Shown one piece after another: positions 2,791 to 61,214 of a stretch of DNA of 64,000 bases (the stretch's first letter is position 1; the number at the start of each line of letters is the position of its first letter). The notes beneath the pieces were generated by a model. That model ran no database searches. It saw only the letters and a program-made list of their open reading frames with translations, and was not told where the DNA came from. The translations under genes were made by a program, and so were the position numbers. The stretch is from an uncultured Bacteroidales bacterium (lineage in GTDB: Bacteria; Bacteroidota; Bacteroidia; Bacteroidales; ML635J-15): positions 26,405-90,404 of the forward strand of contig CAJOIT010000002.1 in the NCBI GenBank assembly GCA_905234755.1. Reading direction: 5' to 3'.

Positions 2791-2846
2791 TTTTGATTCA
2801 ACGATTAAAAAATTTGATGATTCAAAAATTTGAAAATTTGATGATT
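2791..2846 (-). repeat. 7 in-phase octads AATNNTNN downstream of the glucosaminidase stop
   Basis: Minus strand reads AATCATCA AATTTTCA AATTTTTG AATCATCA AATTTTTT AATCGTTG AATCAAAA. Confidence 0.75.
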
Positions 2847-5619: not shown

Positions 5620-5632
5620 GGCTACGCATGTT

Positions 5633-5662
5633 TGTAGGCACGCAATGCATTGCGTGCCTACA
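5633..5662. repeat. Perfect 30-nt GC-rich palindrome (REP-like family, copy 1)
   Basis: TGTAGGCACGCAATG/CATTGCGTGCCTACA, between convergent genes. Related copies lie at 33435-33464 and 50131-50160. Confidence 0.85.
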
Positions 5663-5703
5663 GAATTATTCATTATCAATTGTTAATTGTCCATTATCAA
5701 TTA
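5661..5703 (-). repeat. 6 in-phase heptads AATKNAY overlapping the LtaS-like gene stop codon
   Basis: Minus strand reads T AATTGAT AATGGAC AATTAAC AATTGAT AATGAAT AATTCTG. Confidence 0.75.
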
Positions 5704-10762: not shown

Positions 10763-10804
10763 TTCAAATTCTCCAATCATAAATCGCAAATCGTAAATTT
10801 CATT
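10763..10804 (+). repeat. 6 in-phase heptads TCNNAAA starting at the first nt after the stop codon
   Basis: TTCAAAT TCTCCAA TCATAAA TCGCAAA TCGTAAA TTTCATT. Confidence 0.7.
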
Positions 10805-10811
10805 ATCTTTG
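10804..10811 (+). promoter_or_regulatory. -7 box TATCTTTG upstream of lon
   Basis: TAnnTTTG match 70 nt upstream of the ATG at 10882. Confidence 0.45.
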
Positions 10812-10881
10812 GCACACGGATTGCCCATATAGGGTGCGTGATTAAAAATTAAGAATTAAGTGCCATTTTGACATATTTTTT

Positions 10882-18095: not shown

Positions 18096-18096
18096 G

Positions 18097-18136
18097 AAAA
18101 AGTAGGGGCAGGTTTGAAACCTACCCCTACTTTTTC
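18097..18136. terminator. Bidirectional intrinsic terminator between convergent genes
   Basis: AAAAAGTAGGGGCAGGT-TTGAA-ACCTACCCCTACTTTTT. The stem has one mismatch and is flanked by A and T runs. Confidence 0.8.
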
Positions 18137-33420: not shown

Positions 33421-33464
33421 AAAAACACAAAAAAAATAGCGGCGCAATACATTGCGCCGCTACA
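33421..33464 (-). terminator. Intrinsic terminator of giant gene 2 (REP-like palindrome copy 3 plus U-tract)
   Basis: Minus strand reads TGTAGCGGCGCAATGTATTGCGCCGCTA followed by TTTTTTTTGTGTTTTT. Confidence 0.75.
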
Positions 33465-33540: not shown

Positions 33541-33603
33541 GGGCATTATGCATTATTAATTATACATTGTCAATTATCCATTATCAATTGTCCATTGTTC
33601 ATT
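33541..33603 (-). repeat. 9 in-phase heptads AATKNAY overlapping the giant gene 2 stop codon
   Basis: Minus strand reads AATGAAC AATGGAC AATTGAT AATGGAT AATTGAC AATGTAT AATTAAT AATGCAT AATGCCC. The TGA stop lies in the first unit. Confidence 0.85.
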
Positions 33604-39600: not shown

Positions 39601-42600
39601 CATTGTCTGCACCATCGAATGCAAACGAAAGAATATCGTTTTCATCGGACAGACGTACAATCGAGATATTATCGACAGCAGCAGGGAAAGGTGATGAATA
39701 ATAATTGTTAAACCATTCAAACACAACAAAATAGTTACCACTTTCCAACGAATATACATTACCTGAGAATCTTTCCCATGTAGACGAAGCAGAATTAACA
39801 AAAGATCCTACATATATCCAATTATCATAGTCATATACAAGTTCAAACGGAGAATTTGACTCATAAGGTACAAGGTACACACCCATTCCATTATATATTT
39901 CGGTCGTACCATAATAACTATATTCCACACCATCACACAGCCAGTCGAAAGAAACATTAATGCCACCTGGAGAATCCATATTAATAGCAAAATAAGCGTC
40001 CGAATAACTAGATCCGCTATTATTAAAACCGTATGTAGCTCCTCTGTCATTTGAAACATACATCGCCCTTTCACCATCGCGCGAAACAGCCGTACCAAAA
40101 TACCATCCGTTAGATTCATTATCTCTGCGCCATCCCTGAATATAATCAGATTCAAAATCCTGATAATATGGCAACGACATGATATTAATATCTGGCGTTT
40201 CAAAATATAAATGCGTCCATGAACTATGCTCGTAATCGCTACAGCCAGGAGAAATATAAATGTGGTACCCCTGTCCCGGTTCAGGCAAATCCAAATTATA
40301 ATCAAGCGAAGTTGAAGTTATATAATACGATTCGGCATTAATCTCATCATCAGACATTTCTGTAAATGACGGATACAAAAGATAACTGCTGTAAGAATAC
40401 GGGGAGAACCATGAAATATATGCATTATCCTGCAAGACATCGGCTGTAAGTCCATATACCGGCTCGCAAGGTGGCAAGGTAGAGAACCTTACAGCTCTCG
40501 ACCATGGACTTTGTTCCGATTCGGAGCAATAGGTGCGTACAAATACATAGTAGTTGCCATTTGGATAATCTGGATTTTCATCAAGGTTTTCGGCTACATA
40601 CGACATCGTAGAAACCAACACCGGACTTTCGGTAGCCTCATCGGGATTGTCTGACATAGTTACCAGCACCTGCCACTGCGAACCTGTAGCCGATGTCCAC
40701 GAAATGTCAGCGGAATTGCGAGTGATGTTATCCACACTAACATTACCCTCGAACATACAGTACGAAACATATTCAACGCTTATATTATCGATTGCACCCG
40801 GCGGATCGTCACGTTCACGATTATTATCAGACCAGAAGAATACCAAATAATAGTCACCAGGTTCCATTATATTATGTTCCTTGGAGTTGGTATGCCAGTT
40901 CCATCCATCGCTAACTGAATATTCAGACAAAGCGTTAATATCCAACGCATTTATCCATCCATTAGGTGATGACAAACTATTACTCATTCCGTTTGCATTT
41001 CCCGCGTTTAACGACGGATTCAAACCAACAGGAATAAGGAATGGCCTTACGCTATGATGATAATACCAGCCCACACATTTCCAGTCCAACTTAACCCTAA
41101 CTACTCCTTGCCGATCGAATCTCAGGCGACAATACGCATACGAATAATCCGTTGTGTTTGTCCAACAATATGAATTATTAGCACCACCATCCATGGATAC
41201 ATACATTGACCAGTCGCTATTGTTTCCTGTTGCTGTACCCAGATACCATCCGACTGTATTGTTACTGGTCACCCAGTTTTCAACCACTCCATCCTCGAAA
41301 TCCTCATAGTATGGCAATGGCAAGGCTTCAGTTTCAGGCGTTGTAAATGTAGTGTGTACCCAGTCGCTTATTTCGTTGTCGCCACAATCAACTGTAACAT
41401 AAATGTGATATGTGTGTCCCGGCGTTAACGAATTATCCGTATATGTTGTCGCTCTTTGTTCTAAATACTCGGCAGAAGCAAGTTCTACATCTGTTAGTTC
41501 AGTTTCCGATTTTACTATACGGTAATTGGTAACATCATACGGATGCCTCCATGAGAGGTCAACGGAACTAGGCCTTACAAAAGCCTTAAGTTCGTATATC
41601 GGCTCGCAAGGCGGCAAGGTGGTGAAAGAAACACCGCCTACCCACGAACTTTGTTCCGATTCGGAACAATATGTACGAACAAATGCCTTATAACGTGTAT
41701 TGGGGTTAAGTCCACCAACATTGGGAGTCAGGCTATTTACAAGCACTGGTGTTTCTGTAGCCTCTTCGGCATTATCTGCTGTCGTTACCAATACCTGCCA
41801 TTGCGTAGCAGCGCCATCATAATCATACGATAGCGCTACCGAATTCTTGCCCACCAAGGTAACTGCTATATTTTCAGGGAACAAACAAGTAGACGCGACT
41901 TCAACACTTATGTTGTCAACTGCAGCTGGAGGCATTGTACCAACACCACCATCATTCTTCCAGAAGAATACCAAATAATACTCTCCGGATTCACGCAGTG
42001 CAACTTCGCTTGACGACCTCTGCCACGATGAATTCCTTCTTAATAATTCTGAAGCTTCAATCCAACCTTCAGGCGCCGTATTTGTGCTGGAAGTCATACC
42101 ATTGGCTTCTCCTGCCACAAGTACTGGATTTACAGATGCTGGAATCATATATGCATGAAGCAAATCATAACTACTTTCACCGTAACACCACCAATCGAAC
42201 GAAACATTCACCACTAAAGGATAATCGGCACGCAAACGACAATATGCATAAGAATACGATGTATTATTAGTTGTATAAGTATTTGTCTCTCCATAATCAG
42301 ACGAAATATACAGTGATTTATCTCCAGTATTTGCTACTGCATTACCTTCATACCAGCCATTTGAATCATTGTTAAGATGCCAGTTCTGCAACACATCGGA
42401 CTCGAAGTCCTGATAGTATGGCAAAGGCATTACCTCATCGGACTCTGTTGTAAACTGGAAATACGTCCAGTCGCCAAAACCATCGTTGCAGTCGGCACTT
42501 ATATAAAAGTAGTATGTCTGGTTAGGCGTAAGACCATCTGCATAATACGACATTACTGCACTTGTATTAACAGTAACATATTCTTCCGAACCTAAAGCTT

Positions 42601-45600
42601 CAAGTTGACTTTCTGTCATTGTTGTAGGCGAAACATACACATGGAAGTTATTTGTATATGGATGATCCCAAACAATTCTAGCCGATGTAGCAGACAGAAC
42701 ACTCAAATGAATATCGGTTGAGCCTACACATGGTGGCCATGTAGTAAATTCTACCCCTTCCGACCACGGACTTTGATGCTCTGCAGAACAATACGCACGC
42801 ACATACACATAATACTGGGTGTTCATTTCCAACCCGCCTACCGTTGCAGAAGTAGTATTTACACTAATGGGCGATTCTGTTGCTAACGCGGGCTCGTTCG
42901 ATGCGCTTACAAGCACCTCCCATTGCGATACCCCTTCGACATCTGTCCACGAAAATTCCACAGAAGTCCTGTCGTAATCATTAACGGCAACATTCACTAC
43001 AGGCAAGCAATACGGCAATGTCGCAAACTCCGATTCATACCATAATCCCAGATTCGTTGCCGAGCAGTATCCACGAAGATATACATGATAATCTGTTTCG
43101 GGAATAAGATCGTTAAGCGTATATGATGTATTTTCAACTAATATTGGCATTTCAGTTGCTTCGTCAGGATCGCTGGCTGTTGTTACCAATAACTGCCATT
43201 GCGAAACATACTCGCCATCCGGCCACGAGAAAGTAGCAGAAGTCTTGCCTATATCCGAAACATTTATATTTCCGCTATACAAGCATGACAGCGGGGAAGT
43301 GACATGCAGATTGTCAATTGCCGCCGGCGGCTGATATCCGTAACCACCATCATTTTTCCAATAGAATGCCAAATAATACTTTTCTTCTGTCAGAGTAAAC
43401 TGCTCTGACACAGTTGACCAATTACTATTACCAACCAAACCACCACTAACACTTATCCAACCGCTTGGTACACTGCCGTTATATATATACTCAGTGAATG
43501 TAGGCTCCAATGAAACAGGGATAAGGAATACATTTAAATAATCATCAATATAATAATAGTAACTCTGATAATAATCTCCGTTACATTTCCAGTCGAACGA
43601 CACATTTACAATACTCGGCGTACCGATATTCAGACAACAAAATGCATAAGATTCCGATGTGGAACCAAGATCGTAATGATTAGAGCCACCGTTATTATCG
43701 GATATATACAACGAATAAGAACCTCCGCTAGACGTTCCGGAACCGACATACCAGCCGTTTATACCGTTCCTCATAACCCAATTTTCTACAGCACCTGACT
43801 CAAAGTTTTCATGATATGGCAAATTTTTAGCTTCCAACGGAAGGTAAAACTCTGCGCTTACCCAGTCGCTATACTCTGTCTGTCCACAATATGAACGTAC
43901 ATACACATAATAGCGGGTCATAACAGGAAGATTGGAAACCGTATAGCTGGTATTGCTGAGAGTCACAAGGCTGGCTTCTTCCAAATCGCTATCACTCATT
44001 TCCTCTTCCGAAATATACAACTGGTATGATGTCGACAATGTACCGCCTGTCCATGTTATTGTTGCTCGTGTCGGAGTTGTCGCCACAGAAAGGTTTGCAA
44101 CCTTACAATCGGGGGTATCAAATTCTACAGCACTGCTCCATTCGCCGTAATTATATTCGGAACAGCCACTACGTATATATGCATAATAATGAGTATCAGG
44201 AGTAAGACCTGTTATTGTCTGTGTCGTCGATGTCATTACAACTGGCGATTCGGTTGCCGCCTCGGGATCCGAAGATGTAGTCAGCAATACCTGATAACCT
44301 AAACCACTACCGGACGTGCCTGTAATTTCTACAGAACTACTTCCCAGTACGTTTGCACTCAACGAAGCTGTAGCCGTACAAGGTTCTGCAATCTCTATGT
44401 CATCCACAGCAGCAGGTGGTGAATAAGTGCCGGAACCATCGTTCTTCCAGAAAAATACCCAATAGTAGTCTCCTGCAGTGCTAATGTCAATAGTCCTACT
44501 GCTAATCTGCCAATCTGAGTGTAAAGAAAGCTGTCCTTCAGGATTAGCCACATCAATCCATCGGGAAGGCGTCGAATTGCTAGAACCACTCTGATTATTA
44601 GAATAGCCCCCATTAAGTACCGGATTTACACTTGTAGGAATCAAAAATGCTCGTAGTAAATCCCACCTTGATTCTCCATTGCATTTCCACTTGAACGACA
44701 ACAAATAACTGCCGGCATTGGCGAAATTGATTAAACGCCATGCATATACATACGAAACATCTCCCGTATAATAGTTTGCTGAATTGTTGTATGTAATATA
44801 AAGAGAATTGGACGGACTGACACTTGTATAACTGCCGATAATCCAGCAATTTACCTGGCCATCATTTGCCAATGTCCACTTTTCATTTTCAGTACTATTT
44901 TCAAAATCGCAGGTATATGGAATAGTAGCTGGAGGCACTCTAGGAATAAACTCAATAGCACTACTCCATTCGCCATGAGTTGATTCGGTGCAATAAGCCC
45001 TGATATAAGCATAATAGTGTGCTAATGGTGTCAGACCAGTAATTTCCTGCGTGTCAGAAGTCATCAGAATGGGTGATTCTGTTGCAGTAGCAGGATTTGA
45101 CGAAGTTGAAACCAAAATTTCGTACTTCACGCCATTACCTGATACGCGCGTCAGCAATGCACTACTAGGACTTAGAACATTAACGCTTAATTCGCCCGTA
45201 GCACCACATGAAGTAACAAATCCTACAGCACTGCTCCATGGTCCATACATATCCTGGGTACAATAACTGCGTATGTATGCATAATACTGAGTTTCTGGAG
45301 TAAGACCTGTTATTGTCTGCGTTGTCGATGTCATAGCAACTGGCGATTCGGTTGCCGTAGCAGGGTTCGACGAGGTTGAAACCAATACGTCATACTTTAC
45401 GCCATCACCAGACGCACGCGTCAATGATACCGATGTTGAACTCTGGACATTAGCAGTTAAAGTAGCGGTCTTATCACATGTAGTAACAAAGCTTACCGCA
45501 CTGCTCCATGGTCCATACATATCTTGGGTACAATAACTGCGTATGTATGCATAATACTGAGTGGCTGGTGTAAGACCGCTTACCGTTTGCGTTGTCGATG

Positions 45601-47932
45601 TCATAGCAACTAGCGATTCGGTTGCCGTTGCAGGATTCGACGAGGTTGAAACCAATATGTCATACTTTACGCCATCGCCAGACGCACGCGTCAATGATAC
45701 TGATGTTGAACCTTGGACATTAGCAGTTAAAGTAGCGGTCTTGTCGCAACTGGTAACAAAGCTTACCGCACTGCTCCATGGTCCATACATATCTTGTGTA
45801 CAATAACTGCGAATGTATGCATAATACTGGGTGGCTGGTGTAAGACCGTTCACTGTTTGCGTAGTCGATGTCATAGCAACTGGCGATTCGGTTGCCGTTG
45901 CTGGATCTGACGAGGTCGAAACCAATATGTCATACTTCACGCCATCGCCAGAGGTACGCGTCAATGATACTGATGTTGCACTTTGGACATTAGCAGTTAA
46001 AGTAGCGGTCTTGTCGCACGTTGTAACAAAACTTACAGCACTGCTCCATGGTCCATGCGTGTATTCTGAACAATAGCTGCGTATATATGCGTAGTATCGT
46101 GTACCAGGGATTAAGCCTGTTATTGTCTGTGCAGCGGAAGTCATCGCAACCGGCGTTTCAGTTGCGGCTTCGGGATCAGATGAAGTGGAAACCAGAATTT
46201 CATACTTTACACCGTTACCCGATGTACGATTAATCGATGCAGAAGAACTTCCAGTTGAACTAGCATTTATTGTTGCGATTTCATTACAAGGTTTTGCTAT
46301 CGAAATGTCATCGACAGCCGCTGGAGGATTTGTACCGGCACTATCATCATTCTTCCAATAAAACACAAGAGTATATGCTCCGGCAGTTGAAATTGTGATA
46401 GTTTTTGTTGAAGTAATCCAATCACTTTCACGATTAGTCCACAAGAACACTCCCGATGTATTGTAACTTTGTGAAACATCGGCCACATTAATATAACTGG
46501 TGGCAGGAAATGAATTTGTACTGCCAGAAACATTACTGGCTGGCGGAAATGTAGTACCCGATGGCACCAACGCGGCGTACATGGCATCCCAGCAACCACT
46601 TTCGCCTCGAGCTTTCCACTTGAACGAAACTACATAATCGCCAGTATTGGCAAAATAAAATGAACGATATGCATATCCGTACGAAGAACTACCATTATCA
46701 TAGGAATACGAAGAACCATCATTAGTTATATACAAAGAATTAGAACCGCCACTGCTCGTACCACTTCCAATCATCCAGTAGTTTGTATAAGAACCATTTG
46801 AGAATGTCCAGCGACCATTTTCAGTACTATTTTCAAAGTCACAGTAATATGGAGGCGCACCGATAACACTTTCCACCTTCACTGAATATTGAGCTTTTTG
46901 TGAAGAATAATAATTATCCGCTATAAGATAATAGGTTGTACCGCCAGTCAACGAAAGAGATTTTGCCCCAGAATTCCAACAATTACCAATTACATTTGTT
47001 CCTGTATTTCCATAAGAAGACATCAAGAAGAAATCCGGGTCGCCTGAAGGTTGAGCCGCTGTAAAAACATACGAACCGGAAAATGGCGGCGTGAAAGAAA
47101 AAACATGCTCTTCTCCAGGTTCTTCGTAACCACAACTTGTGTATGTATTCCAAACACTAACAGTTCCCAATGTTCCTGTATATGTAACCCCAAGTTCCAT
47201 AGGTGTAACAGGATCAAACAGATAGTATCTGCCAGCATCAGGCCAAGTAGAAGCTGCTATCGTAGTACTCTGTCCGCTTGTATAATGCGTCATATTATGG
47301 GACGCATCCACCAGAATTATATCATTGCCTCCTGTGCACATACCATGCTGGCATACAACTGCAGGATTTACAGAAGGAAGCGAAGACGGATAAATTACAA
47401 TTATCTTGTTTGTAGTTTCATACAACTGCACCTGCCAAGAGTATATGTTTCCTCGCGATGACGAGTTATAAGTGGTTGTTGCAAACTCGATTACACAAAC
47501 CCTATTAGGAGAAGTTCCCAGCACCTCATACTTAACATACCCACCATCTGCTTCAGAAGGCATATAGCCGTCGCAACCGAAAAAGTTTATCTTCGGAGCA
47601 TTTGATGCAGCATTAGAACTGGAAAAAGGACTACTATAATTATACGTTCCAGTCACAGTTTCGCCAAACTTCAGGTTACCATCGGCATTTACAGAAAATT
47701 GCGTATAATTTGTCGCACCAAACTTAAATGAAAAACCTAAGTCATGTACAGCAGAAACTGCATAATCTCCTCCACCGGTCAGGATTGTCGTTGGACTTGA
47801 AAACGTTCTCCACAGACTAGTATTCGTACCTGTAGTAAACTTATAATCTGCCAATGATTGTCCAAATGCTGTAATACTAAATGACATAACAGCCATCAAA
47901 ACAAAAATACCCAAGCATATTTTATTTCTCAT
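33599..47932 (-). CDS. Giant (about 4,777 aa) modular FN3 / jelly-roll / B-repeat surface protein, T9SS type A cargo
   Basis: Uninterrupted 14.3-kb ORF. The ORF-track start at 47956 is TTG. The ATG at 47932 gives the signal peptide MRNKICLGIFVLMAVMSFSITAFGQ. I count 9 MAM/choice-of-anchor-J-like jelly-roll modules, 18 FN3 units, 3 cadherin-like sandwiches, 2 PPC-like domains, 9 B-repeats and a Por_Secre_tail domain. Confidence 0.9.
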   Translation of the reverse strand: MRNKICLGIFVLMAVMSFSITAFGQSLADYKFTTGTNTSLWRTFSSPTTILTGGGDYAVSAVHDLGFSFKFGATNYTQFSVNADGNLKFGETVTGTYNYSSPFSSSNAASNAPKINFFGCDGYMPSEADGGYVKYEVLGTSPNRVCVIEFATTTYNSSSRGNIYSWQVQLYETTNKIIVIYPSSLPSVNPAVVCQHGMCTGGNDIILVDASHNMTHYTSGQSTTIAASTWPDAGRYYLFDPVTPMELGVTYTGTLGTVSVWNTYTSCGYEEPGEEHVFSFTPPFSGSYVFTAAQPSGDPDFFLMSSYGNTGTNVIGNCWNSGAKSLSLTGGTTYYLIADNYYSSQKAQYSVKVESVIGAPPYYCDFENSTENGRWTFSNGSYTNYWMIGSGTSSGGSNSLYITNDGSSYSYDNGSSSYGYAYRSFYFANTGDYVVSFKWKARGESGCWDAMYAALVPSGTTFPPASNVSGSTNSFPATSYINVADVSQSYNTSGVFLWTNRESDWITSTKTITISTAGAYTLVFYWKNDDSAGTNPPAAVDDISIAKPCNEIATINASSTGSSSASINRTSGNGVKYEILVSTSSDPEAATETPVAMTSAAQTITGLIPGTRYYAYIRSYCSEYTHGPWSSAVSFVTTCDKTATLTANVQSATSVSLTRTSGDGVKYDILVSTSSDPATATESPVAMTSTTQTVNGLTPATQYYAYIRSYCTQDMYGPWSSAVSFVTSCDKTATLTANVQGSTSVSLTRASGDGVKYDILVSTSSNPATATESLVAMTSTTQTVSGLTPATQYYAYIRSYCTQDMYGPWSSAVSFVTTCDKTATLTANVQSSTSVSLTRASGDGVKYDVLVSTSSNPATATESPVAMTSTTQTITGLTPETQYYAYIRSYCTQDMYGPWSSAVGFVTSCGATGELSVNVLSPSSALLTRVSGNGVKYEILVSTSSNPATATESPILMTSDTQEITGLTPLAHYYAYIRAYCTESTHGEWSSAIEFIPRVPPATIPYTCDFENSTENEKWTLANDGQVNCWIIGSYTSVSPSNSLYITYNNSANYYTGDVSYVYAWRLINFANAGSYLLSFKWKCNGESRWDLLRAFLIPTSVNPVLNGGYSNNQSGSSNSTPSRWIDVANPEGQLSLHSDWQISSRTIDISTAGDYYWVFFWKNDGSGTYSPPAAVDDIEIAEPCTATASLSANVLGSSSVEITGTSGSGLGYQVLLTTSSDPEAATESPVVMTSTTQTITGLTPDTHYYAYIRSGCSEYNYGEWSSAVEFDTPDCKVANLSVATTPTRATITWTGGTLSTSYQLYISEEEMSDSDLEEASLVTLSNTSYTVSNLPVMTRYYVYVRSYCGQTEYSDWVSAEFYLPLEAKNLPYHENFESGAVENWVMRNGINGWYVGSGTSSGGSYSLYISDNNGGSNHYDLGSTSESYAFCCLNIGTPSIVNVSFDWKCNGDYYQSYYYYIDDYLNVFLIPVSLEPTFTEYIYNGSVPSGWISVSGGLVGNSNWSTVSEQFTLTEEKYYLAFYWKNDGGYGYQPPAAIDNLHVTSPLSCLYSGNINVSDIGKTSATFSWPDGEYVSQWQLLVTTASDPDEATEMPILVENTSYTLNDLIPETDYHVYLRGYCSATNLGLWYESEFATLPYCLPVVNVAVNDYDRTSVEFSWTDVEGVSQWEVLVSASNEPALATESPISVNTTSATVGGLEMNTQYYVYVRAYCSAEHQSPWSEGVEFTTWPPCVGSTDIHLSVLSATSARIVWDHPYTNNFHVYVSPTTMTESQLEALGSEEYVTVNTSAVMSYYADGLTPNQTYYFYISADCNDGFGDWTYFQFTTESDEVMPLPYYQDFESDVLQNWHLNNDSNGWYEGNAVANTGDKSLYISSDYGETNTYTTNNTSYSYAYCRLRADYPLVVNVSFDWWCYGESSYDLLHAYMIPASVNPVLVAGEANGMTSSTNTAPEGWIEASELLRRNSSWQRSSSEVALRESGEYYLVFFWKNDGGVGTMPPAAVDNISVEVASTCLFPENIAVTLVGKNSVALSYDYDGAATQWQVLVTTADNAEEATETPVLVNSLTPNVGGLNPNTRYKAFVRTYCSESEQSSWVGGVSFTTLPPCEPIYELKAFVRPSSVDLSWRHPYDVTNYRIVKSETELTDVELASAEYLEQRATTYTDNSLTPGHTYHIYVTVDCGDNEISDWVHTTFTTPETEALPLPYYEDFEDGVVENWVTSNNTVGWYLGTATGNNSDWSMYVSMDGGANNSYCWTNTTDYSYAYCRLRFDRQGVVRVKLDWKCVGWYYHHSVRPFLIPVGLNPSLNAGNANGMSNSLSSPNGWINALDINALSEYSVSDGWNWHTNSKEHNIMEPGDYYLVFFWSDNNRERDDPPGAIDNISVEYVSYCMFEGNVSVDNITRNSADISWTSATGSQWQVLVTMSDNPDEATESPVLVSTMSYVAENLDENPDYPNGNYYVFVRTYCSESEQSPWSRAVRFSTLPPCEPVYGLTADVLQDNAYISWFSPYSYSSYLLYPSFTEMSDDEINAESYYITSTSLDYNLDLPEPGQGYHIYISPGCSDYEHSSWTHLYFETPDINIMSLPYYQDFESDYIQGWRRDNESNGWYFGTAVSRDGERAMYVSNDRGATYGFNNSGSSYSDAYFAINMDSPGGINVSFDWLCDGVEYSYYGTTEIYNGMGVYLVPYESNSPFELVYDYDNWIYVGSFVNSASSTWERFSGNVYSLESGNYFVVFEWFNNYYSSPFPAAVDNISIVRLSDENDILSFAFDGADNVHIDTENHIITCDVPYSWNLRGVTPQIEISDLATISPQSGEAVNLSYPFVYTVTAESGISQEWTVMVSRRDAVADVEILSFWTDGLFDVTIDHDNATVNATLSRMYDITSIVPTIEISPLASINQIEGRAYDFTNPRVFTVTAENGVDTKDWIINVTYIDSPLGADCSNPYVVDAENDLPYFNSATTEGLYNMINTYYTDRPEFGFELPGNDAVYRIDLQARKMLVIDAHSFSGVFNVFVMNNCGSLYSYMVDSKTNETNASFSVDCLAGSTYVIIDSDGADVSYEIQIYALPHCYVVNDLDAVRLQNELDVTWSSDNVGDNWTLKYGNQGFDLDTEGTEVSLTDTHYEITGLPESTPYDIYVRANCTGENGNSEWSLLSTSTIAACQYPEGLTASNIYDDEATLSWLGFNMTQWEVGYKKESDSEYTTFTVDETTVTLTDLQLSTTYNVRVRTLCDNENSVYAEIEFTTPCIIVRNFPYIEDFNSDVFPPVCWSQERTAAGTGTGVSYINGAWMSASAVVGDNSTPKALLADTRAGSVHNLASTAIKFAETINGYSISLDVYRSTNSASAADEGVEVWVNSYPDIVNGNPQKLGYISKNYLVSDGDEVGEELSAGWYTYTFNARTGVGINYVILVGKANNAGGVYVDNLTIDQAVDCIAPRNLIVESVGEESVVLAWSDINAINGTWLVRYSIDGGAAVQATVDEPRLTIGGLQSGVSYNISAEIQGVCVAGVESDWYSATVEATTDCQIVDLPYTQDFEVANGELPDCWRTTSNRRNTWSVSDGVAHLAYGNSQVEAHLLSPRFNLTADVHYSLEFDVLQSTQNITRPDSLFVLYVNNYRTDTLRSIAIQNASSNGMTRMSINVPQYVGEARFDFVLSGYRECSIDNILLRPMSSEAEILTFEVPEQTAESVIDSENATISVYVASVSNSMYFTPTFTISENATVNVQSGVQRNFSVPVEYIVTAEDGVTSKTWTVSVGLDENYCPNPSADDIYFYEYGDSADIYIYPANNETSYNLKISSQPIDPETETAELFDGIIEPDSVGYGWRRSVIEGLDAYTYYYIYVQSNCGATGWTEKTACGIFTLPYEQDFSDVDCWEIDDYNNDGRTWSIANGEAMYTFSRTNQADDYLVSPKLQILQNAKLEFKYKAGNFSYPETFLVLVSNGNDTVQLDSLTVSNETYQTYGPVDLSDFAGQLVDIEIQCKSEANRYRLYIDDFKVLVSDYVINVSSEGNGTISPDGIVEVAPGESAEFAIVPDEYNDLLSLTLDGEDVSDEVVDGIYTLADVNAEHTLIATFTERYTFTASAGEGGHIVTDGVTVAEHGDTVSFVVIPDEGYRPGDVIVDGIAEQLEQGSYIYTFENVEASHTIHATFNQIIYHTIHVVAGDNGLVSPSGDVVVEEGENLTISVIPYDDFIIREFLVDGVDAVEELIAHGYNYYFENITADHNVQVSFVENVYYPIAVSYGEHGTITPNGDVSVENGTDQTFYIVPDAGYHIVSVTVDDEDVPSAVAEGEYTFVNVTEDHTIHAEFAINTYTIVAYAQGGTITPSGTITVNHGDNLTLEFEPEAEYELLNFLVDNISQDVEGNSYAFDSITADHAVVAIFTPMNIIRHEITATAGVHGSISPSGRVRVVDGESQTFQIIPDEHYYISSLLVDGEAVDVADSYQFQNVTADHTISASFEVYKHVVTAIAGEHGSVNPSGEQEVDEGSDITFTFAPSVGYIVSEVLVDDISVEFTGNSYTLQNVLEDHVVRVNFDLLPMWSITAVSGANGSITPNGTQYVLNGDDIEFTFVPNDGYMLDRVVVDGQGFSPESNTYMFENVTENHYIYVSFRPLVYFITAEAGPHGELSPSGIVEVEPGATQVFTFNPYIGYELDSVFVDGEYIITDGNTYEFADVNENHTFRVTFKHIAVGVADEVAVSTSLYPNPNDGRFMVDFAGISGNLVYQLVNASGAIIEERDIYVDEGMTMEFYHELRPGVYFARFVSGDKVLVERFVVE
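33602..33838 (-). other. T9SS type A C-terminal sorting domain (Por_Secre_tail, TIGR04183-like)
   Basis: SLYPNPNDGRFMVDFAGISGNLVYQLVNASGAIIEERDIYV...LRPGVYFARFVSGDKVLVERFVVE. Confidence 0.85.
33839..35935 (-). repeat. 9 tandem InlB-B-repeat-like units (about 78 aa)
   Basis: Recurrent pattern Y.I.A.AG..G.ISP.G...V..G....F.I.P..GY.....VDG........Y.F.NV...H.I...F. Confidence 0.6.
39125..39645 (-). other. Two cadherin-like/DUF5018-like beta-sandwich modules
   Basis: ILSFAFDGADNVHIDTENHIITCDVPY...VTPQIEISDLATISPQSGEAVNLSYPFVYTVTAESG..EWTV, plus a second copy. A third copy lies at about 36655-36915. Confidence 0.4.
44961..46310 (-). repeat. 5 tandem 270-bp units (90-aa FN3); the central three are near-identical
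   Basis: The string ctgctccatggtccat recurs at 45231, 45501, 45771 and 46041 (period exactly 270). Protein copies 2-4 differ at 7-8 of 90 residues. Confidence 0.9.
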
Positions 47933-48024
47933 ATCAATAAATTTTATTCGTTTCAAAAATCTAAAATTCGTGAGGCAAGCATCTACAAAATGAGAACAAT
48001 ACCTCTAATAAATATAAAAACGCG

Positions 48025-48097: not shown

Positions 48098-48181
48098 AAT
48101 GAACAATGGATAATTAGCAATGGAAAATTGATAATGTATAATGGACAATGGACAATTTACAATTGATAATGGATAATTGGC
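48098..48181 (+). repeat. 12 in-phase heptads AATKNAY in the divergent spacer upstream of giant gene 2
   Basis: AATGAAC AATGGAT AATTAGC AATGGAA AATTGAT AATGTAT AATGGAC AATGGAC AATTTAC AATTGAT AATGGAT AATTGGC. Confidence 0.85.
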
Positions 48182-48272
48182 ATAACCATAAAAATGTGCA
48201 CCGTCCATAAAATATCAAAGCCACATTCTCACCATCGAAAACCGATTTTTAGTCCCAGACAAGCAAAAACAT

Positions 48273-53318: not shown

Positions 53319-53446
53319 AATCGCGAAGATTCGCCATCAAAAAAGAGAGATTATTTTACAAAAACTGCAAGTGACAATCGCATCCAACAAGGATAACATT
53401 CTACAATTCAACAAATTGATTTTTTTGAAAAAAAGTAAAAAAAATG

Positions 53447-53486: not shown

Positions 53487-53560
53487 TCCTCAGTAGCTCA
53501 GTTGGTTAGAGCACCTGACTGTTAATCAGGGGGTCGTAGGTTCAAGTCCTACCTGGGGAG
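53487..53560 (+). tRNA. tRNA-Asn (anticodon GTT)
   Basis: 74 nt. I folded the cloverleaf by hand: a 7-bp acceptor stem with one G-U pair, anticodon loop CTGTTAA with GTT at 53521-23, and T-loop TTCAAGT. CCA is not encoded. Confidence 0.9.
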
Positions 53561-53563
53561 CAG

Positions 53564-53594
53564 AAAAAGACGAACAAAAAGTTCGTCTTTTTTC
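53564..53594 (+). terminator. Intrinsic terminator after the tRNA
   Basis: AGACGAAC-AAAAA-GTTCGTCT followed by TTTTT. Confidence 0.8.
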
Positions 53595-56158: not shown

Positions 56159-56954
56159 TATTCTGAAACGGACCATATTTGGAGCACTTTTCGTAGCAAT
56201 CACCTGCTTAATGGTGTTGTACAACGAACACACCTGCGCAATATACATAGGATTTTGCGCTGTCATTATGCTCCATGAGTTCATGAAGATGTTCAAAATG
56301 TCCCTTTTAAGGACAATGTTTATCGAAACGATTGGCACTTTTGCTATACTTACAGCATATTGGGGCAGCAAAGGACTATTTATAACCGCCATACCGCTTT
56401 TAGCATTGATTCTTTCCCTTTTCATAATACAACTTTTCGAACACGACACAAAACAGGAAGAATACCTTGGCAAGTCTTTCCTCGCTCTGATATATATTGC
56501 GCTACCTCTTAGCCTAGCCACATACATTGGCATGACTGACAACCAACTGATAATGGCTGTTTTCATACTGATTTGGATTTCGGACACAATGGCTTATTTG
56601 GTTGGCTGCAAGTTTGGCAAGCACAAGATTTTCGAGCGCATTTCGCCAAAGAAATCATGGGAAGGTGCAATTGGCGGATTTGTTTTTACAGTAACTGCTG
56701 CTGCATTTGGCGGTTACCTTTTCCCAAAACTGGGATTCGAGGTATGGCAATGGTGCATAATAGGAACTACCGTTGGCATTTTTGGAATACTTGGCGACTT
56801 CATCGAATCGATGTTTAAGCGTAGCGCAGGCGTCAAGGATTCAGGCAACATAATACCAGGACACGGCGGTATGCTCGACAGACTCGACAGCTTCATTTTC
56901 ACAATTCCGTGGGTAGCGATAGCTGTGTGGGTGATGAGAAGTTTCAATGGCTAA
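56151..56954 (+). CDS. cdsA: Phosphatidate cytidylyltransferase
   Basis: Polytopic protein with the signature SMFKRSAGVKDSGNIIPGHGGMLDRLDS. It overlaps the ftsH end by 8 nt. Confidence 0.9.
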   Translation: MPNILKRTIFGALFVAITCLMVLYNEHTCAIYIGFCAVIMLHEFMKMFKMSLLRTMFIETIGTFAILTAYWGSKGLFITAIPLLALILSLFIIQLFEHDTKQEEYLGKSFLALIYIALPLSLATYIGMTDNQLIMAVFILIWISDTMAYLVGCKFGKHKIFERISPKKSWEGAIGGFVFTVTAAAFGGYLFPKLGFEVWQWCIIGTTVGIFGILGDFIESMFKRSAGVKDSGNIIPGHGGMLDRLDSFIFTIPWVAIAVWVMRSFNG

Positions 56955-56959
56955 CGCCC

Positions 56960-57022
56960 GTTTCTGGTTTCAAGTTTCTAGTTTCAGGTTCAACGTTTAA
57001 CGTTCAAGGGTCAACGTATTTC
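56960..57022 (+). repeat. 9 in-phase heptads GTTNNNN starting 6 nt after the cdsA stop
   Basis: GTTTCTG GTTTCAA GTTTCTA GTTTCAG GTTCAAC GTTTAAC GTTCAAG GGTCAAC GTATTTC. Confidence 0.85.
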
Positions 57023-57032
57023 AAAAATCGAT

Positions 57033-57040
57033 TATCTTTG
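57033..57040 (+). promoter_or_regulatory. -7 box TATCTTTG upstream of the M14 peptidase gene
   Basis: TAnnTTTG match 96 nt upstream of the ATG at 57137. Confidence 0.4.
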
Positions 57041-57136
57041 CGCCATAATCGACACGCAGGAACAGCAAACGACTAAAAGGGGATACGATTATGAAAGTAA
57101 AACTTCAAGAGGGAATAATCAAGTCTTTCTATTGGA

Positions 57137-59017: not shown

Positions 59018-59027
59018 GAACTACGCC

Positions 59028-59083
59028 GGGTCTGGTTTCTGGTTCAAGGTTTAACGTTCAAAGTTCAAGGTTCAAAGGCTAAA
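59028..59083 (+). repeat. 8 in-phase heptads GTTNNNN starting 10 nt after the M14 gene stop
   Basis: GGGTCTG GTTTCTG GTTCAAG GTTTAAC GTTCAAA GTTCAAG GTTCAAA GGCTAAA. Confidence 0.85.
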
Positions 59084-59096
59084 TAAGGCGGCAAGA

Positions 59097-59136
59097 CTGT
59101 AAGACTGCTCGCCTGTTAGACTGTGAGCCTGTTAGC
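59097..59136 (-). repeat. 5 in-phase octads NCTNACAG starting 3 nt after the lplA stop
   Basis: Minus strand reads GCTAACAG GCTCACAG TCTAACAG GCGAGCAG TCTTACAG. Confidence 0.8.
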
Positions 59137-59139
59137 CAT

Positions 59140-60111: not shown

Positions 60112-60146
60112 AGGCAAAAATTATTAAGTTTATAGGTTTCTGTAGC

Positions 60147-60242
60147 TGGCGCCGTTTAAATGCCTGCGGCGTTTGATGGCTTCGCCGTTTCTTGTTTTAA
60201 TGTTTCTGGTTTAAAGATTTGAAAATTTGATGATTTGAAAAT
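60147..60242 (-). repeat. 8-nt periodic array filling the spacer after the DUF4249 stop
   Basis: Minus strand from the stop reads ATTTTCAA ATCATCAA ATTTTCAA ATCTTTAA ACCAGAAA CATTAAAA CAAGAAAC. A 16-nt alternation of GC-rich and (G)TTTNNTG octads follows. Confidence 0.75.
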
Positions 60243-61214
60243 TTAAAATTTTCCTCCTATTGGCACTACGGAATCTTTACTATAAAGATAGACAGAACGG
60301 TAGTTGCAACCGTAGCCTATCCAGAAGCCTTTAGCGTCTTGTCCATCAGGGGCTATAATGTTGGTCTTTACTGTAGCAGGATTGGTAAACGGGTTGCCAT
60401 CGGTAAGATAGTTCCTGTACCAAGACTCCCAGATATTGTATGAAACATTGTCGATTGTCGATAGTTTCAACGAAACAGAATCGCCCTCACGGAAACAGAA
60501 AATGTCGCCAAGCTTATTTATAAACGAATCACGTTCCTCCTGAGTAAAGAAATTATCGTAATATGCATTGCGCTCCAAGCCCTTCACAACCATGGCAAAC
60601 GACATTTCTTCGCCATCGGCCAGCTTGTCGCTTACAATATGGTTCAAGGCATACGGACGGTAGTACATTGGTTGAAATTGATTCTTGACATGGATTGTGT
60701 AATAGTTGCTCTGGTACTTCGGATCTCGCCAGTTGATTCGCATAACGGCAAAACTATCACTCATAAAGGTCGGGAACACTGTATCTATCTTGATAGTATC
60801 GGGAATGTATGTTGACGATGTATAAGTTTTCCCCTCGTACAAAATCTTGAGGTCGTAGCGATGGTTTAGTTCCCCTTTGAACTTTGTTCCCATGAAGCAT
60901 TTGTACGGCCAACGTTGTATCGGAAGGTACTGCAAGGTGTCGGAAATGCTTCCATCCGAAACGATTACGGTAGCCTTTGTGTCGTTAATCTGCAAATCAT
61001 TTACGGCATTGGAATCTAGTTCCTGGAAATATGCTGTGCTTTTCGACAGGAAAACTACAGGATAGTCGTCAAAATCGACATATCCATCTACAACCAGACA
61101 GGGTTCCGACTGCGGCAAGTCGAGCGTAATGTCCTTGATGCACGACGAAATTGCCACCAACGACAACAACACGACAATTATCGAAATCTTAAGCAAATTT
61201 TCTCTCATCGGCAT
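60243..61214 (-). CDS. DUF4249 family lipoprotein (partner of the upstream TonB-dependent receptor)
   Basis: Lipobox LVAISSC. The size and the position immediately downstream of a CarboxypepD_reg-type receptor are typical of DUF4249. Its start overlaps the receptor stop (ATGA). Confidence 0.65.
   Translation of the reverse strand: MPMRENLLKISIIVVLLSLVAISSCIKDITLDLPQSEPCLVVDGYVDFDDYPVVFLSKSTAYFQELDSNAVNDLQINDTKATVIVSDGSISDTLQYLPIQRWPYKCFMGTKFKGELNHRYDLKILYEGKTYTSSTYIPDTIKIDTVFPTFMSDSFAVMRINWRDPKYQSNYYTIHVKNQFQPMYYRPYALNHIVSDKLADGEEMSFAMVVKGLERNAYYDNFFTQEERDSFINKLGDIFCFREGDSVSLKLSTIDNVSYNIWESWYRNYLTDGNPFTNPATVKTNIIAPDGQDAKGFWIGYGCNYRSVYLYSKDSVVPIGGKF

What the first reader, a model, noticed from the sequence alone, without database searches (positions are those of the whole stretch)
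59018..59139. Intergenic spacers made of phase-perfect 7- or 8-nt degenerate arrays that begin at stop codons
The 122-nt spacer between the convergent M14 and lplA genes has no classical hairpin. Instead it contains two arrays. One is 8 heptads sense to M14 (59028-59083): GGGTCTG GTTTCTG GTTCAAG GTTTAAC GTTCAAA GTTCAAG GTTCAAA GGCTAAA. The other is 5 octads sense to lplA (59136-59097, starting 3 nt after its stop): GCTAACAG GCTCACAG TCTAACAG GCGAGCAG TCTTACAG. The same architecture recurs across the window. At 10763-10804, TCNNAAA heptads start at the first nt after the stop. At 56960-57022, 9 GTTNNNN heptads start 6 nt after the cdsA stop. At 60147-60242 and 2791-2846 there are octads after the DUF4249 and glucosaminidase stops. 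At 5661-5703 and 33541-33603, AATKNAY heptads overlap the stop codons. A weaker case lies at 53375-53414. Each array keeps 3-4 fixed positions per unit and holds phase for up to 12 units, but the word differs between loci. A period of 7 or 8 matches neither codon nor helical periodicity. In sense orientation four of the arrays offer one UC/CC dinucleotide per unit, the element read by Rho primary binding sites. Periodic rut-like loading tracks are therefore one hypothesis. Alternatives are a binding track for an oligomeric nucleic-acid-binding protein, or decaying slippage products.
Basis: partly seen in the sequence, partly recalled or inferred. Interest (0 to 1): 0.7.

Follow-up and report, generated by a model that had tools for sequence, protein, structure and literature searches.

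The report
Seven- and eight-base intergenic repeat arrays
The gaps between genes in this uncultured rumen Bacteroidales bacterium are partly filled with short tandem arrays of 7- or 8-base units; the arrays are real and far beyond chance, but they look like the fast-evolving heptanucleotide repeats already described in cyanobacteria and Xanthomonas, not like loading tracks for the Rho termination factor.

Summary
The periodicity is real. Intergenic DNA of the window matches itself at lags 7, 14 and 21 (z about 6) and at lag 8 (z about 4) against dinucleotide shuffles. E. coli spacers and the window's own coding DNA show no such signal. The focal spacer (59018-59139) holds a 7-nt array and an 8-nt array (P<0.001). 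Six further spacers hold arrays. One listed case fails (53375), one is marginal (10763), and one array (48098-48182) was missed.

The words are not locus-specific. They fall into about four dispersed families.

Orthologous spacers in ten related rumen MAG species carry the same families with 6 to over 20 units, or carry no array. Two near-identical copies of the focal spacer differ only by indels of 42 nt (6x7) and 24 nt.

The arrays are unstructured. In gene sense they are not C-rich and have no excess of YC dinucleotides. Their orientation ignores gene strand. Two of them lie upstream of ordinary hairpin terminators. The Rho-track idea is therefore not supported.

Best reading: dispersed heptanucleotide/octanucleotide simple-sequence-repeat families that are remodelled unit by unit and tolerated between a stop codon and the next functional element. 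This is a new member of a known kind whose function is still unknown. A polarity seen across metagenomes remains unexplained.

The parts
59028..59083 (+). Family 1 heptad array, GTTYMAR: 8 units, with a core of six units at 59035-59076. It starts 10 nt after the M14 peptidase stop codon.
   Evidence: lag-7 match 0.71; P<0.001. In orthologs the copy number runs from 6 to over 20 units.
59077..59096 (+). Short A-rich linker of degenerate GGCWAAA-like units between the two arrays.
   Evidence: Read directly from the sequence. Orthologs have variable GGCWAAA/AAGGCAA stretches at this position.
59097..59136 (+). Family 4 octad array, CTGTNAGN on the + strand: 5 units with a 16-nt higher-order period. 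It ends 3 nt before the lplA stop codon (lplA is on the - strand).
   Evidence: lag-8 0.69, lag-16 0.79. Copy number varies in orthologs. The same word occurs in the opposite orientation elsewhere (L001 20760, L009 348).
56941..57022 (+). Family 1 composite array. The head module GTTTCAATGGCTAACGCCC (a GGC/GCC mini-hairpin) encodes the last cdsA codons and its stop codon. Four GTTTCNN units and then GTTYAAN units follow.
   Evidence: (P=0.008). It is conserved with one substitution in L010. It is absent where the upstream synteny differs.
60147..60216 (+). Family 1 head region: three GSCnnnGSC mini-hairpin modules, each followed by GTTTxxx, then GTTTCTT, GTTTTAAT, GTTTCTG and GTTTAAAG. It is antisense to both flanking genes (lplA and the DUF4249 gene are on the - strand).
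   Evidence: (+ strand fold z -2.2).
60208..60251 (+). Family 3 octad array, ATTTGAWR. It overlaps the stop codon of the DUF4249 gene.
   Evidence: P=0.04; exact 18-mer shared with 2829-2846.
2791..2846 (+). Family 3 array, with periods 8, 16 and 24, between the glucosaminidase stop codon and the start of the DUF1573 gene.
   Evidence: period 24 at 86% matches, period 16 at 93%. (shared 18-mer). Not significant at lag 8 on its own.
5661..5703 (-). Family 2 heptad array: RAYAATK on its G-rich (-) strand, ATTRTCM on the + strand. It starts at the stop codon of the sulfatase-like gene and lies upstream of the 5633-5662 hairpin.
   Evidence: (P=0.005).
33541..33603 (-). Family 2 heptad array of 9 units, overlapping the stop codon of the 4785-aa T9SS (type IX secretion system) surface-protein gene.
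   Evidence: lag-7 and lag-14 both 0.73; P=0.024.
48098..48182 (+). Family 2 heptad array of about 12 units in the divergent spacer upstream of the same giant gene. It is inverted relative to 33541-33603.
   Evidence: (P=0.008).
10763..10804 (+). Marginal TCNNAAA heptad array directly after a stop codon.
   Evidence: lag-7 0.54, lag-14 0.61; P=0.07.
33429..33462 (-). Canonical intrinsic terminator (26-nt GC-rich hairpin plus T8), 78 nt downstream of array 33541-33603. It places that array inside a 3' UTR.
   Evidence: (dG -18.7).
5633..5662 (.). Perfect 30-nt palindrome between the convergent ROK and sulfatase-like genes, next to array 5661-5703. It is a likely bidirectional terminator hairpin.
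   Evidence: (fold z -3.75 and -3.41).

Best explanation
The spacer is built from members of a few dispersed families of short-period tandem repeats. They are the counterpart, in a rumen Bacteroidales lineage, of heptanucleotide 'long simple sequence repeats' (STRR-type arrays).

Shown:
- The arrays are real, almost confined to non-coding DNA, and the same words recur in several spacers.
- They change by gain and loss of whole units and modules much faster than by point substitution.
- They can be present or absent at the same gene end in related species.

Inferred mechanism:
- Units are added and removed by replication slippage or unequal recombination. Later substitutions make the units degenerate. 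Because single-base indels are rarer than substitutions, the phase survives without any selection for phase.
- A period that is not a multiple of 3, together with in-array stop triplets (all three frames on one strand in most arrays), makes an array incompatible with an ORF. Arrays therefore persist only in the dispensable DNA between a stop codon and the next promoter, terminator or gene. They often expand right up to the stop codon, and in four cases they supply it.
- They are probably transcribed as unstructured 3' UTR or inter-cistronic RNA.

No dedicated sequence-specific function is needed to explain the window's data. If the arrays have an effect, it is most likely a generic one: an unstructured spacer, or a block to translational read-through.
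For: - Periodicity beyond chance and limited to intergenic DNA.
- Shared families across unlinked spacers.
- Orthologous M14-lplA spacers in seven syntenic genomes keep the same two families but measure 122, 152, 181, 183, 188, 237 and 275 nt.
- The window and L010 spacers are 122/122 identical apart from one 42-nt (6x7) indel and one 24-nt module indel. The adjacent M14 gene is 94-100% identical per 100-nt bin and lplA about 90%.
- L003, L005 and L008 have no array after M14. They have an ordinary hairpin-T-run terminator and a tRNA instead.
- Synteny breaks coincide with array borders.
- Higher-order periods of 14, 16, 21 and 28, typical of block duplication.
- Arrays fold no better than shuffles.
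- Stop triplets occur in all three frames on one strand in most arrays. Four arrays overlap the stop codon of the adjacent gene.
- The same architecture is published for (GGGANTN)n in Xanthomonas and Nostoc: 89-93% intergenic, degenerate positions, close to the 5' neighbouring ORF, rare between divergent genes, and variable in length between close relatives. Slippage is the proposed origin and no function was found (PMC4692102; PMC4679880).
- Contigs picked for one heptad word carry many other heptad words: 298 period-7 TRF rows in 689 kb. This points to a genome-level propensity, not to one binding site.
Against: - Slippage alone does not explain why the same words, and the same 5'-to-3' order of unit types (mini-hairpin modules, then GTTTCNN, then GTTYAAN), recur at unlinked spacers. 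Nor does it explain the exact 18-mer shared by two spacers 57 kb apart. Some copying between loci must also occur.
- All 24 family-1 arrays share one DNA orientation.
- Across metagenomes the arrays are polar. The 5' end of the G-rich strand lies nearer an ORF boundary (50:21 and 46:17). Inverted partner arrays occur in only one arrangement (26:0). A purely neutral model does not predict this.
- Conserved triplets (GTT, ATT) next to variable positions could reflect recognition. Column non-uniformity is significant only for 33541 and 48100 (P=0.016 and 0.031), and block duplication can also produce it.
- No transcript data were available, so a role in 3'-end formation or RNA stability is untested.
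Confidence: 0.6

Rival explanations
1. Mobile or recombination-spread modular repeat element, in the manner of REP/BIME or pneumococcal BOX elements. Under this reading, family 1 is an element with a defined head (GSCnnnGSC mini-hairpin modules, each followed by GTTTC) and an expandable heptad tail. An enzyme acting on single-stranded DNA inserts or copies it at gene ends, and slippage only adjusts the tail. This overlaps the best explanation; the difference is the way the arrays spread.
For: - Recurrent internal order H, then C, then A in about nine independent sites, and 24/24 arrays in the same DNA orientation.
- Head modules directly after stop codons: TAA-AGGCTACGCCGTTTC in L001, L009 and L011 and TAG-GGCTACGCATGTTTG at 5617-5634.
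- Arrays at synteny breakpoints.
- An exact 18-mer at two distant spacers.
Against: - No transposase, RAYT (REP-associated tyrosine transposase) or integrase in the 64-kb window.
- No terminal inverted repeats or target-site duplications were recognised.
- The hairpins have only 3 bp.
- Families 2-4 have no head module.
- The similarity between the two family-2 arrays that flank the giant gene is no better than at other in-phase offsets (0.78 against 0.59-0.75).
Confidence: 0.15
2. Register-specific binding track. Each 7- or 8-nt unit offers one conserved triplet (GUU, AUU or CUG) to one subunit of an oligomeric RNA- or ssDNA-binding protein. Candidates are cold-shock or S1-type OB folds (about 7 nt per domain) or a TRAP/HutP-like ring. 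The track would set mRNA 3'-end stability, translation of the next gene, or nucleoid structure.
For: - The conserved triplet plus variable positions hold phase over 6-12 units.
- The arrays are unstructured.
- Polarity relative to ORF boundaries in two independent metagenome samples.
- The literature notes one CspB molecule bound per heptamer (PMC4679880).
Against: - At least four different words occur in one 64-kb window, and dozens in other genomes.
- Orientation relative to genes is mixed.
- Unit number is unconstrained, from 0 to over 20 at one locus.
- No candidate protein is encoded nearby.
- Column non-uniformity is mostly not significant.
Confidence: 0.12
3. One reading: periodic rut-like tracks that load the Rho hexamer on the transcript of the upstream gene and replace hairpin terminators.
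For: - The arrays are unstructured and lie just after stop codons.
- The focal spacer and the spacers at 56955-57136 and 60118-60242 lack strong hairpins.
- After M14, genomes without an array have a hairpin terminator and genomes with an array have none.
Against: - Sense-strand G is at least equal to C in arrays 59028, 59097, 56960, 5661 and 33541. YC content is at the chance level.
- Orientation is independent of the gene strand.
- Two arrays sit upstream of canonical hairpin terminators.
- One array lies in a divergent promoter region.
Confidence: 0.06
4. Chance low-complexity sequence or an assembly artefact.
For: The AT-rich spacer 2761-2880 is not significant at lag 8.
Against: - 0 of 500-1000 shuffles reach the observed values.
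- Identical spacers occur in contigs from a second sample.
- The same arrays occur in MAGs from more than ten independent studies.
Confidence: 0.01

Closest known systems
Heterogeneous heptamer SSR arrays of Xanthomonas, (GGGANTN)n, and Nostoc, GGGGA(C/T)T (Rehm et al. 2015, PMC4692102). The class is the 'long SSRs' with a heptanucleotide excess described by Mrazek et al. 2007, as cited in PMC4679880 and PMC4692102.
   Same: - Tandem 7-nt units with fixed and free positions.
- 2-26 units, about 90% intergenic, and many loci per genome.
- Close to the neighbouring ORF on the 5' side, mostly between co-directional genes and rare between divergent genes.
- Both orientations relative to genes.
- Length and sequence variation between close relatives at the same locus.
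- No function found; slippage is the proposed origin.
   Different: - The words here are A/T-rich and cannot form G-quadruplexes.
- 8-nt arrays are almost as common as 7-nt arrays (22 against 29 TRF rows).
- Several word families co-exist.
- One family carries mini-hairpin head modules.
- The host is an uncultured rumen Bacteroidales lineage.
Cyanobacterial STRR sequences (short tandemly repeated repetitive heptanucleotides of Calothrix, Anabaena and Nostoc) and the TAACTGA repeats of Beggiatoaceae, cyanobacteria and some Bacteroidetes (MacGregor 2015, PMC4679880).
   Same: - Dispersed intergenic heptanucleotide arrays.
- Several heptamer words side by side in the same spacer. This is noted for Gramella and Aequorivita, both Bacteroidetes.
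- Sporadic phylogenetic distribution and unknown role.
   Different: - In Beggiatoa the TAACTGA sets are mostly perfect, have 2-6 copies and sit just upstream of start codons.
- The window's arrays are degenerate and mostly next to stop codons.
Rho utilisation (rut) sites.
   Same: Unstructured RNA downstream of a stop codon.
   Different: - Not C-rich or G-poor, and no excess of YC dinucleotides.
- Not strand-specific relative to the gene.
- Two arrays co-exist with hairpin terminators.
- Periodicity is not a known property of rut sites (my own knowledge).
REP/BIME elements of enterobacteria and BOX elements of Streptococcus pneumoniae (modular intergenic repeats; my own knowledge).
   Same: - Dispersed and intergenic, often just after stop codons.
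- Modular, with a variable number of internal sub-units.
- Small hairpins in family 1.
   Different: - The unit is 7-8 nt, against 35-45 nt.
- The hairpins have only 3 bp.
- No associated RAYT-type gene was seen.
- Most arrays have no palindrome at all.
TRAP and HutP RNA targets: 11 (G/U)AG triplets with 2-3 nt spacers, and UAG triplets with 4-nt spacers (my own knowledge).
   Same: A conserved triplet plus a short variable spacer, repeated in phase. The HutP register is also 7 nt.
   Different: - Those tracks are single regulatory sites in the leaders of specific operons, read in one orientation.
- Here there are at least nine sites per 64 kb, several words, both orientations and an unconstrained copy number.

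Membership tests
Heptanucleotide long-SSR / STRR-type intergenic arrays | Head-to-tail units of 5-11 nt (mostly 7), without unique spacers | tested here: met
   TRF periods 7 and 8 with 0% indels. Units are listed.
Heptanucleotide long-SSR / STRR-type intergenic arrays | Strong bias to non-coding DNA | tested here: met
   51 period-7/8 rows in 26 kb of intergenic DNA against 3 in 225 kb of coding DNA.
Heptanucleotide long-SSR / STRR-type intergenic arrays | The same word(s) recur at many loci of a genome | tested here: met
   Families 1-4 each occur at two or more unlinked spacers.
Heptanucleotide long-SSR / STRR-type intergenic arrays | Unit number varies between close relatives at the same locus | tested here: met
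   Orthologous spacers of 122-275 nt. A 42-nt (6x7) indel lies in an otherwise identical spacer.
Heptanucleotide long-SSR / STRR-type intergenic arrays | Nearer the 5' neighbouring ORF; rare between divergent genes (Rehm 2015) | tested here: inconclusive
   Met in the metagenome samples (50:21 and 46:17; 3 of 71 divergent). Not significant within the rumen lineage (22:15).
Rho utilisation (rut) site | C-rich, G-poor RNA in the sense of the terminated transcript | tested here: not met
   Sense-strand G against C: 15/8 (59028), 10/11 (59097), 13/11 (56960), 6/3 (5661), 10/7 (33541).
Rho utilisation (rut) site | Enrichment of YC dinucleotides | tested here: not met
   0.17-1.33 per unit against 0.74-0.85 expected from the window-wide frequency of 0.106 per nt.
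Rho utilisation (rut) site | Little secondary structure | tested here: met
   Fold z-scores from -0.9 to +1.45 for the array regions in gene sense. The exceptions are the strands of 5610-5710 (z -3.75 and -3.41), where the signal comes from the adjoining palindrome.
Rho utilisation (rut) site | Rho-dependent 3' ends downstream | not testable with these tools
   No transcript data are available for this uncultured organism.
Intrinsic terminator | GC-rich hairpin followed by a U tract | tested here: not met
   None inside the arrays. Separate terminator hairpins exist at 33462-33429, 5633-5662 and 53563-53593.
REP/BIME-type elements | Imperfect palindrome of about 20-40 nt as the repeated unit | tested here: not met
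   Only 3-bp GSCnnnGSC mini-hairpins, and only in the heads of family 1. The other arrays have no palindrome.
REP/BIME-type elements | A cognate RAYT / Y1 transposase in the genome | not testable with these tools
   None in the 64-kb window.
Contingency-locus SSR (phase variation) | Perfect repeats placed in a reading frame or a promoter spacer | tested here: not met
   Units match at 68-82%. Most arrays lie downstream of stop codons of housekeeping genes.
Contingency-locus SSR (phase variation) | Copy number varies between strains or within populations | tested here: inconclusive
   The only other contigs with identical proteins are 100% identical, so probably the same strain.
CRISPR array | Repeats of 25-40 nt separated by unique spacers | tested here: not met
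   Units of 7-8 nt abut each other without spacers.
TRAP/HutP-type ring-protein RNA track | A phased conserved triplet with a short variable spacer | tested here: met
   GTT+N4, ATT+N4 and CTGT+N4 patterns.
TRAP/HutP-type ring-protein RNA track | A single sense-oriented site in the leader of a cognate operon, with a cognate protein | tested here: not met
   At least nine sites per 64 kb, next to unrelated genes, in both orientations. No candidate protein in the window.

The most novel reading that the evidence does not exclude
Short-period arrays could be polar boundary elements shared by many bacterial phyla. Whatever the heptad word, the 5' end of the G-rich strand abuts an ORF boundary: a stop codon when array and gene are on the same strand, a start codon when they are on opposite strands. 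Inverted pairs occur in only one arrangement. That would point to an undescribed strand-specific process, for example a 7-nt-register RNA- or ssDNA-binding protein, or a direction-specific insulator of transcription or translation. The rumen arrays would then be one lineage's version of it.
Probability: 0.12. Interest if true: 0.75.

Novelty: new member of a known kind. Interest (0 to 1): 0.38.

Why it matters
Dispersed heptanucleotide arrays have been known since the cyanobacterial STRR sequences, and long-SSR surveys later found them again, but their origin and role are still unexplained (PMC4692102).

This window adds three things.
- An abundant group of gut/rumen bacteria devotes about a sixth of its intergenic DNA to such arrays.
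- 8-nt arrays and a modular family with a hairpin head occur beside the 7-nt arrays.
- Comparison across ten sister species shows turnover by whole units on a timescale of about 2% sequence divergence.

There are practical consequences. The arrays are likely breakpoints for MAG assembly and for synteny. They supply the stop codons of some genes. They should not be annotated as terminators or as rut sites. The polarity seen across metagenomes, if it holds genome-wide, would turn a descriptive curiosity into a testable mechanism.

Tried and rejected
- Rfam, gathering thresholds, whole window: only one tRNA, so no known RNA family covers any array.
- Hairpin and terminator scans and folding: the arrays fold no better than shuffles, so they are not cryptic terminators.
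- Promoter reading: the sigma-70-like hits inside 48098-48182 are a by-product of the 7/21-nt period, and Bacteroidetes use a different promoter consensus (my own knowledge). The TTTG-rich family-3 arrays face away from the flanking genes. Rejected.
- Rut composition test: rejected.
- Orientation against replication: the GC skew of flanks in 74 metagenome loci gave 48 positive and 26 negative, Wilcoxon P=0.12. Inconclusive.
- Selection on 'fixed positions': column non-uniformity is significant only for two family-2 arrays, and block duplication could also produce it.
- A common ancestral order of units in the two arrays that flank the giant gene: in-phase identity of 0.78 is not clearly above other in-phase offsets at 0.59-0.75. 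Not claimed.
- Strain-level mutability: look-ups of exact lplA, M14 and cdsA proteins returned only the source scaffold and one second sample with 100% identical DNA. Uninformative.
- The first lplA look-up failed because the ORF finder's TTG start was wrong. It was corrected to the ATG at 60111.
- Polarity within the rumen lineage: 22:15, not significant, and orthologous sites were not de-duplicated.
- Literature searches for later functional work on dispersed heptamer arrays found nothing beyond Rehm 2015 and MacGregor 2015.
Full report
WHAT IS THERE. It holds eight heptads at 59028-59083 and five octads at 59097-59136. A short A-rich GGCWAAA-like linker joins them. Self-match is 0.71 at lag 7 for the heptads. 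For the octads it is 0.69 at lag 8 and 0.79 at lag 16. Tandem Repeats Finder reports both arrays without indels. The spacer has no significant secondary structure on either strand (fold z -0.57 and +0.02), and Rfam finds nothing there.

IS IT MORE THAN CHANCE? Yes.
- Pooled intergenic DNA of the window matches itself at lags 7, 14, 21 and 8 with z = 6.4, 5.8, 5.2 and 3.9. None of 500 dinucleotide-preserving shuffles reaches the observed values.
- A family-wise test per spacer (best 5-unit window over lags 4-12) gives P<0.001 for the focal spacer and 0.005-0.04 for five others. It gives 0.07 for 10763-10881, 0.46 for 2761-2880 and 0.92 for the spacer holding 53375-53414.
- E. coli intergenic DNA shows no lag-7 or lag-8 signal, and the window's coding DNA shows only multiples of three.
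- In 252 kb from this lineage, TRF lists 29 period-7 and 22 period-8 rows in 26 kb of intergenic DNA, against 2 and 1 in 225 kb of coding DNA.
- The arrays occupy 16% of the window's intergenic bases.
- An E. coli control of 50 kb has no period-7 or period-8 array.

CORRECTIONS TO THE OBSERVATION. The words are not locus-specific.
- Family 1 (GTTTCNN and GTTYAAN heptads, often headed by GSCnnnGSC mini-hairpin modules) accounts for 59028, 56941-57022 and the first two thirds of 60147-60242.
- Family 2 (ATTRTCM on one strand, RAYAATK on the other) accounts for 5661, 33541 and an unlisted array at 48098-48182, which lies inverted in a divergent spacer.
- Family 3 (ATTTGAWR) accounts for 2791 and 60208-60251. 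These two share an exact 18-mer, with none expected by chance.
- Family 4 (CTGTNAGN) is the focal octad array. It recurs elsewhere in relatives in both orientations.

The case at 53375 is not supported, and 60147-60242 is not a run of twelve octads.

ORGANISM AND COMPARATIVE EVIDENCE. The M14 protein retrieves eleven loci from ten rumen Bacteroidales/Bacteroidia MAG species at 93-97% amino-acid identity. The source scaffold and a second sample carry identical DNA, which rules out an assembly artefact.
- In the seven genomes that keep the M14-lplA arrangement, the spacer always contains families 1 and 4, but it measures 122 to 275 nt, with about 6 to over 20 heptads.
- The window and L010 spacers are identical at all 122 shared positions. 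They differ only by a 42-nt (6 x 7) indel and a 24-nt module indel. The adjacent M14 gene is 94-100% identical per 100-nt bin and lplA about 90%.
- Three species with a different downstream neighbour have no array after M14. They have an ordinary hairpin-T-run terminator instead.
- Synteny breaks fall at the array borders.
- Most relatives show the same lag-7 and lag-8 excess in their own spacers, with z up to 9.3.

TESTS OF THE RHO HYPOTHESIS. Rho's primary sites bind YC dinucleotides, and rut regions are C-rich, G-poor and unstructured (my own knowledge).
- In gene sense the focal heptad array has 15 G and 8 C. Arrays 5661 and 33541 are also G>C, and 59097 and 56960 are about balanced.
- YC counts are 0.17-1.33 per unit, against 0.74-0.85 expected from the window-wide frequency.
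- Orientation does not follow the gene. All 24 family-1 arrays found in about 270 kb lie in one DNA orientation whatever the strand of their neighbours, and the 60147 array is antisense to both of its neighbours.
- Arrays 33541-33603 and 5661-5703 lie between a stop codon and a strong hairpin. One is 33462-33429 with a T8 tail (dG -18.7); the other is the 30-nt palindrome 5633-5662. There the array is 3' UTR and termination is conventional.

Only the lack of structure fits a rut site.

WHY THE ARRAYS TOUCH STOP CODONS. This part is inference. A period of 7 or 8 shifts the reading frame at every unit. Most arrays contain stop triplets in all three frames on one strand, so no ORF can extend through them. 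Arrays can therefore persist only outside ORFs. They can expand until they meet a stop codon, and they then define it. The last five cdsA codons and its stop codon lie in a family-1 head module. The giant gene, the sulfatase-like gene and the DUF4249 gene all end inside arrays. On the far side, the arrays end where conserved promoter sequence begins.

WIDER DISTRIBUTION. These contigs carry many other heptad words: 298 period-7 TRF rows against 34 of period 8 and 14 of period 6 in 689 kb. This suggests that some genomes have a general propensity for 7-nt arrays.

Two regularities emerged.
- When oriented by the GTT strand, or for 63 unrelated words by the G-rich strand, an array lies nearer its 5' neighbour ORF. 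This holds whichever way that ORF points (50:21, P=8e-4; 46:17, P=3e-4). Divergent spacers are rare, at 3 of 71.
- Inverted partner arrays occur only as 5'-(GTTCAAN)n...(NTTGAAC)n-3' (26:0).

ORF calling on these contigs is crude. The rumen lineage itself does not show the polarity significantly (22:15).

COMPARISON WITH WHAT IS KNOWN. Rehm et al. 2015 (PMC4692102) describe the same architecture for (GGGANTN)n in Xanthomonas and GGGGA(C/T)T in Nostoc. They report heterogeneous heptamers with conserved positions, 89-93% of them intergenic. The mean distance is 28 nt to the 5' ORF against 160 nt to the downstream ORF. The arrays lie mostly between co-directional genes and in both orientations, and they vary in length between close relatives. 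No function was found. The authors cite the proposal of Mrazek et al. 2007 that heptamers slip easily on DNA polymerase. MacGregor 2015 (PMC4679880) reports TAACTGA arrays, and other heptamers beside them, in cyanobacteria, Beggiatoaceae and some Bacteroidetes. Searches found no later functional work. The present case is therefore a new member of a known but unexplained class. Its own features are A/T-rich non-G4 words, frequent 8-nt arrays, and a modular family with a hairpin head.

VERDICT. The Rho-track interpretation is not supported. The most likely account (confidence about 0.6) is dispersed short-period repeat families that are remodelled unit by unit and confined by selection to the dispensable DNA after stop codons. 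What this does not explain is how the same words and module order reach unlinked spacers, the uniform orientation of family 1, and the polarity across metagenomes. These keep open an element-like spread (about 0.15) or a register-specific binding role (about 0.12).

Noticed in passing
window 48098-48182 (+) and 33541-33603 (-): Two family-2 heptad arrays flank the 14.4-kb giant gene (33599-47956, -) as inverted copies. Both begin with TGAATGAACAATGGA on the side facing the gene. Their in-phase identity (0.78) is not clearly above other in-phase offsets (0.59-0.75).
   Followed up: partly
L014-L133 (metagenome contigs): Heptad arrays are polar. Oriented by the GTT strand or the G-rich strand, they lie nearer the 5' neighbouring ORF whichever way it points (50:21 and 46:17). 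Inverted partner arrays occur only as (GTTCAAN)n...(NTTGAAC)n (26:0). Rehm 2015 reported the same rule for G-rich heptamers. ORF calls here are crude.
   Followed up: partly
L014-L133: Contigs selected for one heptad word carry many unrelated heptad words, often abutting each other: 298 period-7 TRF rows against 34 of period 8 and 14 of period 6 in 689 kb. G+C ranges from 34 to 70%. This suggests a genome-level propensity for 7-nt arrays in diverse phyla.
   Followed up: partly
window 56941-57022, 59035-59076, 60147-60216; L001-L011, L133: Family-1 arrays have a consistent 5'-to-3' order: GSCnnnGSC mini-hairpin modules, then GTTTCNN, then GTTYAAN. All 24 lie in one DNA orientation over about nine independent sites, regardless of gene strand.
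   Followed up: partly
window 56938-56954: The last five codons and the stop codon of cdsA (…RSFNG*) are encoded by a family-1 head module (AGTTTCAATGGCTAA). The repeat has therefore become the C-terminus of a housekeeping protein.
   Followed up: no
window 57014 and 59022 against L002-L005, L008, L009: The M14 gene with its promoter is a conserved block. Its flanks differ between species, and homology breaks at the borders of the arrays.
   Followed up: partly
window 5620-5634: GGCTACGCATGTTTG directly after the ROK gene stop codon resembles a family-1 head module. Compare TAA-AGGCTACGCCGTTTC after M14 in L001, L009 and L011.
   Followed up: no
window 19178-32596 and 33599-47956 (-): Two adjacent giant ORFs of 4472 and 4785 aa. 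The C-terminal 999 aa of the second carry Flg_new_2 repeats and a Por_Secre_tail (T9SS sorting) domain. It also contains a 270-nt tandem repeat at 45205-46210 (3.7 copies, 87% matches).
   Followed up: partly
window 18096-18126, 5633-5662, 930-973: Short convergent spacers consist almost wholly of strong palindromic hairpins (dG -12 to -30). They are likely bidirectional terminators without canonical T-runs.
   Followed up: no
window 53487-53560 and 53563-53593: A tRNA gene is followed at once by a canonical hairpin-T-run terminator. This shows that the organism uses ordinary intrinsic terminators.
   Followed up: no
window 18127-19047 (-): A WYL/WCX-domain protein, a likely transcriptional regulator, is encoded next to the first giant gene.
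   Followed up: no
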